Shown here piece by piece: positions 3,001-9,000 of a stretch of DNA of 9,779 bases (position 1 is its first letter; each line of letters starts with the position of its first letter). Made by a program: the position numbers. The stretch lies in IMG/VR virus record IMGVR_UViG_2740892231_000007; one strand, written 5' to 3'. The stretch comes from a virus (lineage: Duplodnaviria; Heunggongvirae; Uroviricota; Caudoviricetes).

Positions 3001-6000
3001 AAAAGACCAAAACAAAACGCTTGAAGTGGATTCCACTTAGTGATTATACTGGAATCCAGTTGAGTGTTTATCACTCAATGCAAACGAGGCAGAAAAGGAT
3101 TGCCGTCCTTTCGCAGCCTCTGACCACCAACGATAGCAACAGTATCGAGGTAGCTATGAGAAATCATATCACACACCCGCAAGGGCGGGACCCGCACAAC
3201 CTGAATAAATACATCTGGCGTTTTATCGCCCTGAGCACGGCTAAGCCGCGCGTAATCCACATCGTGGCCACCAGCGAACAGGAAGCCCGTCGGCAATCAC
3301 CGGCTGGCTGCGTGATGGTATTCACTGCCCGTATTCGTCAGGGGGTGGACTTATGAGCCAGGAAATCACACTACAACAGGCAGCAGAACGCGCCCACCAA
3401 ATCGAAGTTATTTGCGCACTGGCAGAGGATTACCCTGGCATGATGACCGACAGCGAATCAGGGGCAATCATCGGCTTACTTAAACGCCTTAGCGGTGAGG
3501 TCTGCGTATTCCTGAGCGATGAGCAGGAAAGAAGAACGCTTATTTCTAACGAAAAAAAATGCGGAGGGGTACACCATGTGCAATAACATCCGTCCGGACG
3601 CAACCGCCGCCGCGCTCACTACGCTGATGCTCGCGCTTATTGATATTTCTGTTATTGCTGACAGGGCGCATAAGCACGCCACCAGTGAAACAGAATATGC
3701 AGGGGCTTTCGTTCCTCATTCGCTGGCGGTTATGCAACTTAGTGCTGATATGGCGCTGAATGAGGCCAAAGCCATCCTGATTGCTGATTGTGAAAATGGG
3801 GGGGGGGTTATGCGTGATGATCGTTTTAATTCCCTGAAACAGGAATTTTCCGGCGTTCCTGATGATGCGGCTGATGCGCTTTCGTCAATGCCAGAACTTA
3901 TTAGAGCGGCTTTTTTCTTACTTTCCACGAGAGAATATAAATCAACGGGGCTTGATGTACTGAATATCGCCGCCGATTATGCGGAATATGTGGCAGAGGC
4001 GCGTTACAGAAGAAAATTTCCTGAGGATGTAAGCCATGCGTGATATTTACCACGAAACAACAGATCGCGTATTTCTTGCACTTTCTCACAGTGAAAATAT
4101 GATGGAAATATTGCGCATATGGCTTGAAACACTTGGCGACAATGAACGCGACAAACAAAAATCAAGAATTGCCACGGCATTAATAACGCTTCTTGAGCCT
4201 GTAATAAATGAGTTGCAGGAAATAGAGACATTGCACGACAGATATAACGAACAGCACACCGGAGAATAAAAATAATGAAACTTAAATATTCTGGCTTAAC
4301 TGCCAGTGGCAACACTCACCCTAAATTTACGCGCGGTGATATTTACCGCGACCAGTACGGCGGTACGGTAATGATTAAGGGCGTGGCGGGACGGTGCGTA
4401 ACTTACCGCCGTGAAGGTTACGAATATGATTGCGTGATGCCTGTTTATCAGTTCCGGCGTGATTTTTCTCTGGTACAGACCGCGCCGCATAACGTGCCCA
4501 CCAGCAACGCCAGGGCACGGGCAAACATCCAGAAGCTGAAAACAATGATTAACGGATTCAGGGGTAAAAAATGAAACTGGCACCGAACGTAAAACGATTA
4601 CCGAAAGATAAATACACCGATGCGATTATTTTTGCGGGTATTGATGCTCATTCATTCGCAGAGCATTACATCATTGCACAGGCCAAAAAAGCAGGCGATC
4701 CAGTCCCTCCCGTTTATCTGGGGCGTTATCAGTTAAGCGAACTGGATAACCTCCAGATTGTTGATGATGGGCGATACAGGGCGACGGTGATACGCGCCGG
4801 AAATATTGAAGAGCCGCAGCTGTTAACCATCGCCACGAAACTGGCGAGCGCCGGAGTCCAGGAGGCGCGGCTACTTTCTGAAAATTTCGAATTGCTGGAG
4901 GAATGGAGCGACCAGCTTCCACGGCTTAGGGAGGCATGGGAACGCGGGGAAAGCCTGGTCATGAAAAAAATCCCCCAGCGAAAAACCAAGCTACCAATGA
5001 GCGTTGGATCTACCGGATACGACACACAGCTTGATTACGTGGTAAAGGGGATTATTCCGGCATCGTCGCTTTGCAGCATATACGGGGCGAGCGGTTCCTA
5101 TAAATCATTCCTTGCCGGATCGTGGGCGTGTCACGTTTCCACGGGCCGCCAGTGGGGAGGCCGCAGGGTGGCGCATGGCGCTGTTCTCTATGTGGTTGGT
5201 GAAGGCGGTATAGGCGTTCCGCGTCGTGTAAAAGCCTGGGAGGTTGTGCACGATGAGCAGGTGAAAAATCTGTATCTGGTAAACCGTCCCATCTTTCCGG
5301 CTGCCCCGCTTGATATTGATGAAATGGTTATCGCTGCCAGCCAGGTGGAGCGGGAAACGGGTAAACCTGTTCGCATGATTATTCTGGACACGCTGGCGCG
5401 TTGCTTTGGCGGCAATGATGAAAATGACTCCCGCGACATGGGGGGATTTATCCGTGGTTGTGACGAGCTTAAACGGCGCACAGGGGCTACGGTGCTGGTG
5501 GTTCACCATTCCGGCAAGGATGAAACAAAGGGGGCGCGTGGTTCCAGTGCATTTCGTGCATCACTGGACGCTGAATACCGGATACGCAGGGAGGACGCAG
5601 GAAGCGAAGCGCTGGTTATCTCATGCACCAAAATGAAGGACGCGGAGGAACTCAAAGAGGCTGCCTATGATTTGCGGGTGGTGGAGCTTTTTACCGACGC
5701 TGACGGGGAGTTAATCACGTCGCTGGTGGTGGTGGATAAGCCGCGTCCTCCCGTTGAACTGGAGCGCATCGAAGAGGCTGGCAACAAGACGGAGAATCAT
5801 GCTGCGCTATGGGGATGTATCCGGTCACGCACACAGCACGGCGACAAGTGCACGATCCCGCTGTTACGTGACGATATGAAAAAGCTGGGGTACGAAATGA
5901 AAAACTTCAGCCGCTGGCTACGCAAGCTGGAAAAAGACGGGGTTATTTATATCGACGGTGATGATGTAGGCCCTCTGTAAAAAGTGAGGCGCAAAAGTGA

Positions 6001-9000
6001 GGACAATGAGGAATTGCACGAAAAACCCCCTGAACTCCTCACTTTTCAACGTATATATACCCCAAAAAGTGAGGAGCAAAAAAAATCCTTATGGAACATG
6101 CACATACAAAACACAAAAATCTCAAGTGAGACGAAGCGAGACGCTTTAAAAAGTGAGGCGTAAAAGTGAGCATGAGTGAGGAGATAACCAAAATGCGCAG
6201 AGACAGAACAGAGCCGAAATATAAAGCGTTAGACATGACAGAGCACGCCTTAAAGGTGGCAATCAGGGTAATAGACCGCCACGCGGGGGAAGGATACGCG
6301 AAGGAACATCCCGACCTGATAAGCGCATTCATGACCACGGCGGCGGCAAACTTTGCCACGCTGACAGAACGGGAGATTGCCGAAGCGGAACAGGTAACAA
6401 CCATCAACGTAAAAACCGGAGAGTCAGGCGATGATACATGACCGCATAGCGGAGGAACTCGAGGCGAAAGGATTTTACCGGAGGGCGGCGGCGCGATGGG
6501 GTGAAGTCATGCAGCTGGTGGAGACAGACAAGGAACGGCATCAGGTTACGATGCGACGGCTGGAATGTTCCAGGAAGGCACAGAGGCCACCGGAGCCGCC
6601 GGATAACTTCGGAGACCTGAGAAAGGCAGTCGATCGCACTTATGCTGAAATGGGTATAGATGGTGTAAGCGATGAAATATGGCGTAATTACCCAGACAGC
6701 TAATCAACAGCCGGAGAAATCCGGCTTTTTTGTAGGTACTCCTGGTGGGGGTGGCCTGTCCACGGGGCGGAGGGGCGCGGAAAAAGGCGCATTTTTTGAT
6801 TTTTATGGCACCATCACCACCACTATAAGTTATTGATATGTTGAGAAATAAAAATTTTTAGTGTCGAATCAGGTTGTTTTTTGTTCATCACCGGAACGTT
6901 CCCGAAAACATTTACAAAAAACAGGCGCAAAAAAAGCGCCCCCGATTGCTGTTACCGGAGGCGCTTTTACACGACAAAGGAGTTTTTATCGCCAGGATGA
7001 CGAGTCTTAATACTGCTTCAATGGCAAAAATGCGTCAATAACTTTGCCTTTCTGAGAATAATCAGAAAAATCATAATCTGATTTTCAGGTATAAAATGAT
7101 TTATCTATTACTTTTATCGATCAATAATGATGCCCGTTAATCAAAACGGAGGCGGATTTATGCCAGAGAACAACACCAGAAAGCCGGATAAAAGTGCCAC
7201 GGTACACATAGACGCCGGAACTATGGAGAAGATCGAACGCTATCAGCAGTTCATCAAAGATAATCACCCGGGTATGCCAGTACCCACGAAAGGACAAATC
7301 ACACGCAGCGCGGTTGAATATTGGTACAGGGCAACGTTAGGGGTCTGGCTATGAAAACATGGTTTTCCATTAAGGCTATGGCAGATGTTGTCTATGTGCG
7401 CATTTATGACGAGATCGGCGGGTACGGTGTAAAAGCATCGGCACTTACTGACGAGATCAACGCGTGTGGTAATGCGTCTGAAATCCATCTTCGCATCCAT
7501 TCACCTGGTGGCGACATCTTTGAAGGGCTGGCTATCTATAACGCCCTGAAAAATCATCCGGCAAAGAAAATTGTACACATTGAAGGCATGGCGGCTTCTA
7601 TGGCCTCGTTTATTGCCATGTGTGGCGATCACATCGTTATGCCTGAAAACGCGATGATGATGATACATGCCCCCCGTGGTGTTACTGCCGGAGTGTCGGG
7701 CGACGTTCGCCGCTTTGCTGACCTGATGGACAAGCTGGGCGACACGATGGCGGAAACCTACGCCGGAAGAACGGGCAGGAGCAAACAGGAAATCACCGCC
7801 ATGATGGAGGCGGAAACCTGGATGGATGGCAATGAGTGTAAGGCTAACGGCTTCGCAGATGAGGTTATACCCGCGATTACAGCAATGGCCCGAATTGAAT
7901 CAAAACGAATCGGAGATTTTTCAAATATGCCGGAAAAAATTAAAAGCATGATCAGCCAGAAAACTACCAGTGGCGAACAGGAACGACTTAACGGCATCCG
8001 TGAATTGTTTGGCACGTTCAACGGAAGATATAACGACCTGGCTATAAGTTGTCTTGCTGATTCAGAATGTAGCGTTGAGAATGCACGCGAACGCCTTTTA
8101 CTCGCTATGGGTAAAGAATCAACGCCAACAAACAAAACCACCCCCGCAAATCTTTACTACGCGTACACGGATAACGGCAACATAACCGGCGATGCAATGC
8201 GCCAGGGGCTTAATGCGCGTCTTGGTCACGAACGGGCCGAACGCGGTAATCCTTACGCCATGATGAGCCTTTTCGATATGGCACAGGCATCATTAACCCA
8301 TCGTGGTATAAGCACGGGCAGCTACAGCACACGCTCGCAGATAGTAAACGCGGCATTCACCCACAGCAGCAGCGATTTTACCGATATCCTTGCTGGTGGC
8401 GCTGAAAAATCAGTGCTTGCAGGCTGGGAGCACAGCGGCGAAACATTCCGCCAGTGGACGAAAAAAGGTTCCCTTTCAAACTTCCGGGAAGCCCGCCGCG
8501 TTGGTATGAATGGCTTCTCAACGTTAAACAAAGTGCCGGAAGGGGCAGAATATAAATACATCACCACCAGCGATCGCGGTGAACCCATCGCGCTGGCTAC
8601 TTACGGGAATATTTTCAGCATTACCCGCCAGGCTATAATCAATGATGACCTTGATCAGTTATCAACGGTGCCAATGGCTATGGGCCGTGCAGCATCAAGA
8701 ACGGTGGGAAATCTGGTTAATCTGGTGCTTACAGGCAACGTAAAACTTTCTGACGGAATAACGCTGTTTGACAAAAAACACAGCAACCTGATTGAAGCAG
8801 GACTGACAACACCGGGACTTAGTGCAGCACGTCACCTGATGCGCACACAGAAGGACAAAAATGGCGAAGTGCTGAATATTGCGCCTAAATTCCTTTTAGT
8901 TCCGGCAGCACTGGAAGATCGCGCGTTGCAGATGATTAACTCAACCGCACCTTTCGGGGCTGATAAAAACAGCGGGATCTTTAACCCGTATCACAAGCTA

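What the first reader, a model, noticed from the sequence alone, without database searches (positions are those of the whole stretch)
5979..6182. Iteron origin immediately 3' of the helicase gene, overlapping the next gene start
At least nine copies or variants of AAAGTGAGG are present. They form two direct clusters (5981-6011 and 6123-6181), with one inverted copy (6037-6045) and one direct copy (6066-6074) flanking an AT-rich GTATATATAC core.

In SaPI/PICI biology the ori lies directly downstream of the rep gene and consists of iterons around an AT-rich segment, and specificity resides in the Rep C-terminus. Here the helicase has a wHTH-like C-terminus adjacent to the array.

The right-hand cluster overlaps all three candidate starts of the next ORF (6166, 6172 and 6193). 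Initiator binding could therefore also gate expression of the downstream gene, the PerC-like regulator and the head genes.
Basis: partly seen in the sequence, partly recalled or inferred. Interest (0 to 1): 0.55.

Follow-up and report, generated by a model that had tools for sequence, protein, structure and literature searches.

The report
Satellite-island replication origin with iterons
The repeat cluster just after the helicase gene is very probably the replication origin of an E. coli phage-satellite island; this layout is already known for such islands, and here the repeat sequence changes in step with one short motif in the helicase's DNA-binding tail.

Summary
Ten copies or variants of AAAGTGAGG lie in 5981-6181 and none elsewhere in the window. 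One 7-mer occurs 7 times in 204 nt, against at most 4 for any 7-mer in 200 shuffles.

The window is a ~10 kb PICI-type satellite island at tRNA-Pro/yejM in E. coli. Islands at this attachment site with this RepA-family helicase (e.g. EcCI11128) are catalogued in Fillol-Salom 2018. That paper states that Gram-negative PICI origins lie just 3' of rep, as two iteron sets around an AT-rich centre, and tested this for EcCICFT073.

The comparative evidence is strong.
- In 69 related loci the same layout follows the helicase stop codon: left cluster, inverted copy, TATATA core, direct copy, A/T-rich spacer, right cluster.
- The 3' half of the repeat changes with a motif at the start of helix 3 of the helicase's predicted C-terminal winged helix: KNF-TGAGG, KHF-TGGGG, KKF-TGGGGG, KSF-TGCGGC.
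- Four loci fetched for their variant motifs all carried a different repeat unit.
- EcCICFT073 has an unrelated initiator body and unrelated iterons in the same slot.

Verdict: a helicase-specific iteron origin, inferred and not tested experimentally. It is a new member of a known kind. The main difference is that the helicase is RecA-fold (RSF1010 RepA-like, SF4), not AAA+ as in SaPIs. Gating of downstream genes is unsupported.

The parts
4571..5980 (+). Initiator-helicase gene (469 aa). It has an N-domain of unknown function (aa 1-141), a RecA-fold RepA/DnaB-like ATPase core (AAA_25, aa 151-318) and a C-terminal winged helix.
   Evidence: Pfam AAA_25, E=3e-42. A PDB profile search hits RSF1010 RepA 1g8y, E=1.2e-4, over aa 154-318. 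Foldseek on the whole model recovers RadA/Rad51, T7 gp4 and Twinkle cores at weak E-values, 1e-3 to 1e-2. RefSeq names close relatives 'helicase RepA family protein'. The GASGSYKS and ILDTL motifs are invariant in the family alignment.
5789..5977 (+). C-terminal winged-helix domain (aa 407-469), the proposed iteron reader.
   Evidence: AlphaFold2 gives pLDDT 81-92 in the full-length model and 86 (above 93 over the fold) for the domain alone, with topology H-H-H-beta-beta. All top Foldseek PDB matches are winged-helix DNA-binding domains, with probability 0.85-0.97 and TM 0.56-0.71.
5900..5917 (+). Codons for K444-N445-F446-S447-R448-W449, at the start of helix 3 (the presumed recognition helix). 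This is the proposed specificity motif. R448 and W449 are invariant in the 13-sequence alignment A1, with one KW exception among the 69 loci.
   Evidence: The motif partitions the repeat types without exception: KNF-TGAGG 27/27, KSF-TGCGGCA 8/8, KKF-TGGGGG 26/26, KHF-TGGGG/TGGG-type 8/8. Within E. coli, KHFRRW goes with AAAGTGGGGA, KHLKRW with AAGTGGGN, and RKGFRRW (Yokenella) with AAGTGCGCG.
5981..6011 (+). Left cluster of three direct repeats: 5981 AAAGTGAGG, 5994 AAAGTGAGG and 6003 ACAATGAGG. The A-run of the first copy overlaps the helicase stop codon (TAA, 5978-5980).
   Evidence: The equivalent cluster is present directly at the stop codon in related loci.
6035..6076 (.). Central 42-nt imperfect palindrome. 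It consists of the inverted repeat (6037-6045, minus strand), the GTATATATAC core (6051-6060, dyad at 6055/6056) and the direct repeat (6066-6074). It is the proposed head-to-head assembly and first-melting site.
   Evidence: Arms are 21 nt and 81% complementary with no gap. The hairpin dG is -10.6 kcal/mol, z=-7.8. An inverted copy is present in 69/69 loci, and the distance from the inverted copy to the next direct copy is 31 nt in 63 of the distances scored, 33 nt in the window and L002. The TATATA-type core is seen in every repeat class inspected.
6075..6122 (.). A/T-rich spacer (69% A+T, A-rich on the + strand), a possible unwinding region.
   Evidence: A spacer of about 60-70 nt with poorly conserved sequence is present in relatives.
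6123..6181 (+). Right cluster of five direct repeats: 6123 CAAGTGAGA, 6133 GAAGCGAGA, 6150 AAAGTGAGG, 6163 AAAGTGAGC and 6173 TGAGTGAGG. The last copy also supplies the GAGGAG ribosome-binding site of the next gene.
   Evidence: The aligned positions carry good copies in relatives.
6193..6441 (+). Next gene, a small protein of unknown function (phrog_1231). It is not part of the origin. Its start is at ATG 6193, or at ATA 6184, the position homologous to the ATG used by relatives.

Best explanation
Interval 5978-6182 is the vegetative replication origin (ori) of a phage-inducible chromosomal island (PICI-type satellite). The adjacent 469-aa protein is both its initiator and its replicative helicase.

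Proposed mechanism:
1. After induction, the helicase is made from the island's rightward operon.
2. Its C-terminal winged-helix domains bind the roughly 10-nt units (AAAGTGAGG). Helix 3 reads the unit, with the largely invariant R448/W449 proposed to contact the constant AAGTG half and residue 445 (Asn here) proposed to set base 6 (A here).
3. The flanking direct clusters (3 copies on the left, 5 on the right) raise the local concentration of protein and nucleate oligomers.
4. The two opposed copies, about three helical turns apart across the TATATA dyad, position two assemblies head to head.
5. The duplex opens at the TATATA core and/or the neighbouring A/T-rich spacer.
6. The RecA-fold hexamers load themselves onto single strands and drive bidirectional replication using the host polymerase and primase.

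Shown: the repeats and their layout, the conservation of that layout, repeat/motif covariation, the winged-helix prediction, the island context, and the published precedent.

Inferred: binding, melting site, self-loading, stoichiometry, helicase polarity (5'-3', by analogy with RSF1010 RepA) and the source of priming.
For: 1. The clustering is far beyond chance.

2. The island context is right. It has an integrase at tRNA-Pro, an AlpA-like HTH, Icd-like and DUF4222 genes, the helicase, PerC and a capsid gene, all rightward. EcCI11128, a PICI named in PMC6092414 Table S1 at the same yejM-luxR site, carries the same helicase family and an equivalent array.

3. There is published precedent.
[quoted passage not shown] For EcCICFT073, rep and ori were both needed for plasmid maintenance (PMC6092414).
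- SaPI Reps are self-loading helicases whose C-terminal winged helix reads 6-12 iterons just downstream of rep, with opposed iterons around an AT-rich centre (PMC9371898).

4. The architecture is conserved in 69 of about 80 loci from many Enterobacterales genera. The array starts at the helicase stop codon, every locus has an inverted copy, and the central spacing is near-constant.

5. The repeat unit covaries with the helicase C-terminus.
- Mantel r=0.80; partial r=0.505 given core distance, p=2e-4, N=69.
- Motif and unit partition exactly.
- E. coli and Xenorhabdus share KNFSRW and AAGTGAGG although their C-terminal tails differ.

6. Prediction tests: four loci chosen only for their variant motifs (KHFRRW twice, KHLKRW, RKGFRRW) all had a changed unit, in all or nearly all copies, inside otherwise conserved flanks.

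7. Natural module swap: EcCICFT073 has the same flanking genes but an unrelated initiator body and unrelated iterons (TGTCTACC).

8. The array travels only with the helicase core and C-terminus.
- Helicase core and C-terminus: 68/68.
- Small ORF 1/68, PerC 1/68, DUF4222 3/68, helicase N-domain 2/68.

9. The AlpA-like HTH (WP_000387403.1) is identical in L001 and EcCI11128, which have different units.

10. The C-terminus is a confident winged helix with the covarying residues at the start of helix 3. The pairings Asn with A and His/Lys with G match common amino-acid/base preferences (my own knowledge).

11. No DnaA box, IHF site or GATC lies in the array, which fits a self-sufficient initiator. 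There is no Rfam hit.
Against: - There is no experimental evidence for this replicon type. Only the unrelated EcCICFT073 Pri-Rep/ori pair has been tested.
- Part of the covariation is shared descent. The partial correlation with the helicase core is also significant (0.255).
- The array is only moderately unstable (least stable 1-2% of the window), and the window minimum lies elsewhere.
- There are ten copies, four of them degenerate, and only one is inverted. A neat double-hexamer stoichiometry is therefore not evident.
- The E. coli protein has no recognisable primase domain, unlike its Xenorhabdus relatives, so priming is unexplained.
- Foldseek E-values for the small winged-helix domain are weak (0.08-0.26).
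- The full-length model is poor in the ATPase core (mean pLDDT 63).
Confidence: 0.85

Rival explanations
1. The repeats are mainly a transcriptional control region. The helicase C-terminus, or another island or helper-phage regulator, binds them to switch on or block the small ORF, PerC and the capsid gene. Origin function would be absent or secondary.
For: The right cluster ends 2-11 nt before the next gene's start, and its last copy doubles as the ribosome-binding site. No terminator separates the helicase from the next gene, so bound protein could act as a roadblock. The TATATA core looks like a -10 element.
Against: - No sigma-70-like promoter is found in 5800-7400.
- The position where a -35 element would lie is the variable repeat itself.
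- In 67 of 68 related loci the downstream genes are different, yet the array persists.
- Only 10 of 69 arrays lie within 15 nt of the next ORF.
- The AlpA-like regulator is identical in islands with different units.
- The layout matches published PICI and SaPI origins.
Confidence: 0.07
2. The array is a DNA-packaging recognition site (pac or cosB-like) bound by a small terminase subunit of the island or its helper phage.
For: Small-terminase binding sites are often short repeats. Related islands carry terS. EcCICFT073 uses cos sites.
Against: - This island has no terminase gene.
- The array is tied to the helicase and not to any late-gene module.
- The unit covaries with the helicase winged helix.
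- The same backbone carries different late modules.
Confidence: 0.03
3. The array is bound by the helicase's winged helix but serves copy-number control, incompatibility or exclusion of co-resident satellites (titration or handcuffing). Initiation would occur at another site.
For: Iteron arrays in plasmids have such dual roles (my own knowledge). A second array of foreign specificity lies in tandem in one Xenorhabdus locus. At least eight specificity classes coexist in the Enterobacterales, as expected if cross-talk is selected against.
Against: - No other repeat cluster of this unit exists in the window.
- The conserved opposed pair around a TATATA core and the A/T-rich spacer are origin-like features.
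- The tested EcCICFT073 ori occupies the equivalent position.
Confidence: 0.05

Closest known systems
Gram-negative PICI rep-ori module (EcCICFT073 Pri-Rep and ori; Fillol-Salom et al. 2018, PMC6092414)
   Same: - It is the same kind of island, with the same gene order: int, alpA, DUF4222, initiator, ori, small ORF, then (SSB) and PerC.
- The ori lies immediately 3' of the initiator gene.
- Short repeats in direct and inverted orientation flank an A/T-rich centre.
- The first ~141 aa of the two initiators are homologous (44% identity).
   Different: - The initiator body is unrelated: a 584-aa 'DNA primase family' protein against a 469-aa RepA-type helicase.
- The iterons are unrelated: TGTCTACC/GGTAGAYA against AAAGTGAGG.
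- Only the EcCICFT073 pair has been tested experimentally.
SaPI Rep / ori (Staphylococcus aureus pathogenicity islands; Qiao et al. 2022, PMC9371898)
   Same: - One polypeptide is both initiator and helicase.
- A C-terminal winged-helix domain reads short iterons.
- There are 6-12 iterons directly downstream of rep.
- The centre is AT-rich, with opposed iterons on either side.
- Specificity is matched between Rep and ori.
- No host initiator sites are present.
   Different: - SaPI Reps are AAA+ helicases (SF3 or SF6) with 3'-5' polarity. This protein has a RecA-fold, RSF1010-RepA/DnaB-like (SF4) core.
- The unit here is about 9-10 nt, against 5-6 nt in SaPIs.
- Only one copy is inverted here, and both outer clusters point the same way.
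IncQ plasmid RSF1010 replicon (RepA helicase, RepC initiator, RepB' primase, oriV)
   Same: The ATPase core is homologous to RSF1010 RepA (PDB 1g8y, E=1.2e-4). The origin uses iterons next to an A/T-rich region (my own knowledge).
   Different: - In RSF1010, origin recognition is done by a separate protein (RepC) on 20-bp iterons, and priming by RepB' at ssiA/ssiB.
- Here the recognition domain is fused to the helicase.
- The units are about 10 nt.
- No RepC- or RepB'-like gene was seen in the window.
Satellite phage P4 alpha protein with ori/crr
   Same: It is an enterobacterial satellite. A single protein combines the replicative helicase with a C-terminal winged-helix origin-binding domain that reads short repeated octamers (my own knowledge; not tested here).
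   Different: - P4 alpha carries an active primase and an SF3 helicase.
- Its ori and crr are two separated sites, not one array abutting the gene.
- There is no sequence similarity to this protein, and P4 alpha did not appear among the fold matches.
Primase-helicase-WH fusion proteins of Xenorhabdus islands (L006-L030; T7 gp4-like domain order)
   Same: - The helicase core is about 70% identical.
- They share the KNFSRW motif, the AAGTGAGGA unit and the origin layout.
   Different: They carry an N-terminal zinc-ribbon and Toprim primase (680 aa). The E. coli protein has a ~140-aa domain of unknown function there instead.

Membership tests
PICI/SaPI-type rep-ori module | The origin lies immediately downstream of the initiator (rep) ORF. 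| tested here: met
   The first repeat overlaps the stop codon (5978-5989). The same holds in related loci.
PICI/SaPI-type rep-ori module | Six to twelve short iterons lie in two sets flanking an AT-rich region. | tested here: met
   There are ten copies: four to the left of the TATATA dyad and six to the right. GC falls to 0.37-0.39 in the centre.
PICI/SaPI-type rep-ori module | [quoted passage not shown] | tested here: inconclusive
   Only one copy (6037-6045) is inverted. It opposes 6066-6074 across the core, but the outer left and right clusters share one orientation.
PICI/SaPI-type rep-ori module | The initiator has a C-terminal winged-helix domain that determines iteron specificity. | tested here: met
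   AlphaFold2 gives a winged helix, pLDDT 86. Motif and unit covary exactly, and four prediction tests succeeded. Binding itself was not tested.
PICI/SaPI-type rep-ori module | The initiator is an AAA+ (SF3 or SF6) helicase, as in SaPI Reps. | tested here: not met
   The core is AAA_25, RecA-fold and RSF1010 RepA-like. It therefore works like a SaPI Rep but is not homologous to one.
PICI/SaPI-type rep-ori module | The rep-ori segment drives autonomous, rep-dependent replication. | not testable with these tools
   This needs the plasmid-maintenance assay used for EcCICFT073 (PMC6092414).
Gram-negative PICI (island level) | Integrase at a dedicated att site, alpA-type regulator, unidirectional rightward genes, size about 10-15 kb, no full phage morphogenesis or lysis set. 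| tested here: met
   Islands at the same yejM-luxR site are listed as PICIs in Table S1 of PMC6092414. Helper-phage induction was not tested.
Classical iteron-plasmid origin (pPS10/F/R6K/RK2 type) | 17-22 bp iterons bound by a non-helicase WH-WH Rep protein, with DnaA boxes and host DnaB loading. | tested here: not met
   The unit is about 9-10 nt. No DnaA box within 1 mismatch and no IHF site is present. The binding domain is fused to a helicase.
IncQ (RSF1010) replicon | Three separate proteins, RepA helicase, RepC iteron-binder and RepB' primase, acting on 20-bp iterons with ssi sites. | tested here: not met
   Only the RepA-like core is shared. No separate initiator or primase gene was found. 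The units are short.

The most novel reading that the evidence does not exclude
This may be the first recognised self-loading initiator-helicase built on a bacterial-type RecA-fold (SF4, RepA/DnaB-like) motor rather than an AAA+ motor, so it would have converged on the SaPI/viral design. It would come with a naturally readable specificity code. One residue at the start of the winged-helix recognition helix (position 445: Asn, His, Lys, Ser or Gly) would set base 6 of the iteron (A, G, G, C, C). This would give at least eight mutually orthogonal replicons in the Enterobacterales that keep co-resident satellites from cross-activating one another.
Probability: 0.3. Interest if true: 0.6.

Novelty: new member of a known kind. 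Interest (0 to 1): 0.4.

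Why it matters
This identifies the likely origin and the specificity determinant of a satellite replicon present in hundreds of E. coli genomes: the array matches 652 of 5426 complete genomes. The group includes O157:H7 and O111 islands that carry PerC-type virulence regulators.

The general design is already known, so the discovery value is modest. 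The family-wide motif/iteron correspondence gives a directly testable one-residue specificity switch. It also offers a set of candidate orthogonal replicons, and it shows that the 'helicase plus winged helix plus adjacent iterons' design also occurs on a RecA-fold helicase.

Tried and rejected
- RNA element: no Rfam family reaches threshold anywhere in the window.
- Promoter in the array: none was found by the sigma-70 scan.
- Host-factor sites: no DnaA box, IHF site or GATC in 5950-6200.
- 'The array is the most easily melted DNA of the island': false. The minimum is at 6790-7130.
- An 84-85 nt phasing between the three groups of direct repeats is seen in the window but is not conserved across the family, so I did not use it.
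- Residue 455 against base 3 of the unit (Xenorhabdus AAATGAGG variants): the correspondence is not clean, so I dropped it.
- Degenerate Toprim hypothesis for the N-domain: no Pfam hit at E up to 5 and no BLASTP similarity to the Xenorhabdus Toprim region.
- Fold search with the full-length model recovered only generic RecA-like cores at weak E-values. The C-terminal domain had to be modelled separately.
- Literature search for the repeat sequence itself returned only unrelated primers.
- I could not see Fig. 2a of PMC6092414, so I cannot say whether this exact iteron was drawn there.
- ORFs crossing the array (5984-6163 +, 5918-6079 -, 6039-6407 -) were not tested for coding. The aligned spacer diverges heavily between near-isogenic islands, with a 1-nt indel.

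Full report
**1. What is in the sequence**

The helicase ORF (4571-5980) ends with TAA at 5978-5980. Ten copies or variants of AAAGTGAGG follow it.
- Three direct copies lie at 5981, 5994 and 6003.
- One inverted copy lies at 6037-6045.
- One direct copy lies at 6066-6074.
- Five direct copies lie at 6123, 6133, 6150, 6163 and 6173.

All six matches with at most one mismatch fall inside 5981-6171, where about two are expected in the whole window. One 7-mer occurs seven times in 204 nt. In 200 Markov shuffles no 7-mer of any sequence exceeded four copies.

The inverted and central direct copies belong to a 42-nt imperfect palindrome (6035-6076). Its dyad falls in GTATA|TATAC. GC falls to 0.37-0.39 over 6000-6150.

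- The array is only among the least stable 1-2% of the window, and the minimum is at 6790-7130.
- The right cluster covers the candidate starts at 6166 and 6172 but not 6193.

Relatives start the next gene at an ATG aligned to window 6184. That codon is ATA in this window and in its 99%-identical relative L001, where the RefSeq annotation nevertheless starts the gene.

**2. Context**

The window runs from an integrase (1-1242) through DUF4222 (4275-4574), an AAA_25 helicase, a small ORF and PerC (6431-6703) to a ClpP-protease/major-capsid fusion (7321-9240).

A 99%-identical copy sits between tRNA-Pro/yejM and yejO in an E. coli chromosome. Table S1 of Fillol-Salom et al. 2018 lists PICIs at this yejM-luxR site. 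One of them, EcCI11128, has the same integrase family, an identical AlpA-like protein and a RepA-family helicase in the same slot.

Matches to the array occur in 652 of 5426 complete E. coli genomes, typically beside a 'helicase RepA family' gene in the rows inspected.

**3. What is already published**

[quoted passage not shown] They showed for EcCICFT073 that both rep and ori are needed to maintain a plasmid.

Qiao et al. 2022 describe SaPI Reps as self-loading helicases. A C-terminal winged-helix domain reads 6-12 iterons directly downstream of rep, with opposed iterons on either side of an AT-rich centre.

**4. Natural swap experiment**

EcCICFT073 (L004) has the same flanking genes as the window. 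Its initiator, however, is a 584-aa primase-family protein that shares only the first ~141 aa with the window's helicase (44% identity). Its tested origin uses TGTCTACC/GGTAGAYA repeats. The initiator body and the repeats have been exchanged together.

**5. Family-wide comparison**

I fetched 80 loci encoding relatives of the helicase from many Enterobacterales genera. In 69 of the loci analysed the same layout follows the stop codon. In order it consists of:
- a left cluster of direct repeats;
- a spacer of 20-30 nt;
- an inverted copy;
- a TATATA-type core;
- a direct copy;
- an A/T-rich spacer of 60-70 nt;
- a right cluster of direct repeats.

All 69 have an inverted copy. The distance from an inverted copy to the next direct copy is 31 nt in 63 of the distances scored, and 33 nt in the window and L002.

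The unit has a constant half (AAGTG) and a variable half. The variable half follows a six-residue motif that ends in an RW pair conserved in nearly all loci (window K444-W449):
- KNF goes with TGAGG (27/27).
- KSF goes with TGCGGCA (8/8).
- KKF goes with TGGGGG (26/26).
- KHF goes with TGGGG- or TGGG-type units (8/8).

E. coli and Xenorhabdus share both KNFSRW and AAGTGAGG, although the rest of their C-termini differ.

Iteron distance correlates with C-terminal distance (r=0.80). The correlation remains after controlling for the helicase core (partial r=0.505, p=2e-4, N=69). The core retains a smaller partial correlation (0.255), which reflects shared descent.

**6. Prediction tests**

From the protein alignment alone I chose four homologues with variant motifs and then fetched their DNA.
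- E. coli KHFRRW (two loci) has AAAGTGGGGA.
- E. coli KHLKRW has AAGTGGG(N).
- Yokenella RKGFRRW has AAGTGCGCG.

EcCI11128 (KHFRRW) also has AAAGTGGGGA. An alignment of five near-isogenic E. coli loci shows the change at base 6 in nearly every copy, while the flanks and the TATA core stay the same.

**7. Who reads the repeats**

The array co-occurs with the helicase core and C-terminus in 68 of 68 loci. It co-occurs with the small ORF in 1, PerC in 1, DUF4222 in 3 and the helicase N-domain in 2.

The AlpA-like protein is identical in two islands that have different units. The N-domain shuffles independently of the repeat type.

AlphaFold2 predicts aa 407-469 as three helices plus a beta-hairpin (pLDDT 81-92, or 86 for the domain modelled alone). 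The covarying residues lie at the start of helix 3. All top structural matches are winged-helix DNA-binding domains.

The ATPase core matches RSF1010 RepA by sequence and RecA-like helicases and recombinases by fold. Phage homologues of the core lack the C-terminal domain.

**8. Mechanism proposed**

Winged-helix domains of the helicase bind the units. The outer clusters nucleate oligomers, and the opposed central pair sets two assemblies head to head across the TATATA dyad. The duplex opens there or in the adjacent A/T-rich spacer. The RecA-fold rings then load themselves and replication proceeds in both directions.

Binding, melting, stoichiometry, polarity and priming are all inferred. The absence of DnaA, IHF and Dam sites fits a self-sufficient initiator. 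The lack of any recognisable primase in the E. coli protein is an open point, since the Xenorhabdus relatives carry a zinc-ribbon and Toprim primase.

**9. The gating idea**

Nothing beyond proximity supports control of downstream genes by initiator binding.
- No promoter is predicted in the region.
- The downstream genes are not conserved partners of the array.
- Only 10 of 69 arrays lie within 15 nt of the next ORF.

The last repeat does double as the ribosome-binding site in E. coli, so a local side effect cannot be excluded.

**10. Comparison and novelty**

The element works like SaPI and PICI rep-ori modules and sits in a catalogued PICI type. I therefore file it as a new member of a known kind. 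It is not homologous to SaPI Reps, because the motor is RecA-fold (SF4-like) and not AAA+.

What may be new is the exact motif-to-iteron correspondence across at least eight specificity classes, and the fixed geometry of the central opposed pair. I found no description of either in the held literature. I could not view the published figure of E. coli PICI iterons.

**11. Verdict**

The origin interpretation is supported at about 0.85 confidence without experiment. The gating speculation is unsupported. Interest is moderate (0.4).

Noticed in passing
L007 (Xenorhabdus beddingii), +227 to +359 nt after the helicase stop: A second complete array of a different specificity (AAGTGGGGA, with its own inverted pair and GTATATATG core) lies in tandem after the cognate AAGTGAGGA array. 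No second helicase gene follows it. It could be an origin that answers to another island's initiator, or a recombination relic.
   Followed up: partly
window 4571-4993 (helicase aa 1-141): The N-domain is 44% identical to the N-terminus of the otherwise unrelated EcCICFT073 Pri-Rep. It shuffles independently of iteron type and is missing from 66 of 68 non-E. coli relatives. Xenorhabdus relatives have a zinc-ribbon and Toprim primase there instead. It has no Pfam hit and no similarity to Toprim, so the E. coli protein has no recognisable primase.
   Followed up: partly
window 6703-7320: This ~600-nt non-coding gap between PerC and the protease-capsid gene contains the least stable duplex of the window (about 6790-6890 and 7030-7130). 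A terminator-like hairpin lies at 6709-6726, right after PerC. It may hold the late promoter or a packaging site.
   Followed up: no
window 6184-6195: The ATG that starts the small ORF in relatives is ATA in this window and in the 99%-identical L001, where the RefSeq annotation still starts the gene at the ATA. The next in-frame ATG is at 6193.
   Followed up: partly
L085 4100-4108 (last repeat before the small ORF): In this G-type (AAAGTGGGGA) origin the final copy keeps the A-type sequence AGTGAGGA. This probably marks the right-hand recombination boundary of the exchanged specificity module (helicase C-terminus plus array).
   Followed up: no
window 7321-9240, compared with L091 8684-10258 and L004 12669-14071: The same integrase/AlpA/replication backbone carries different late modules: a protease-capsid fusion alone in the window, terS plus capsid in EcCI11128, and capsid plus decoration protein in EcCICFT073.
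   Followed up: no
window 1914-3356: A 480-aa GTG-start ORF with no Pfam hit lies opposite small annotated minus-strand genes (including YlcI/YnfO family) in the near-identical L001. It is probably spurious.
   Followed up: no
L069, L074, L076, L025, L019, L081: These relatives have a decayed or truncated array: a single remaining repeat, a frameshifted helicase with only the right cluster left, or weak AAATGAGG copies. They are likely defective replicons.
   Followed up: partly
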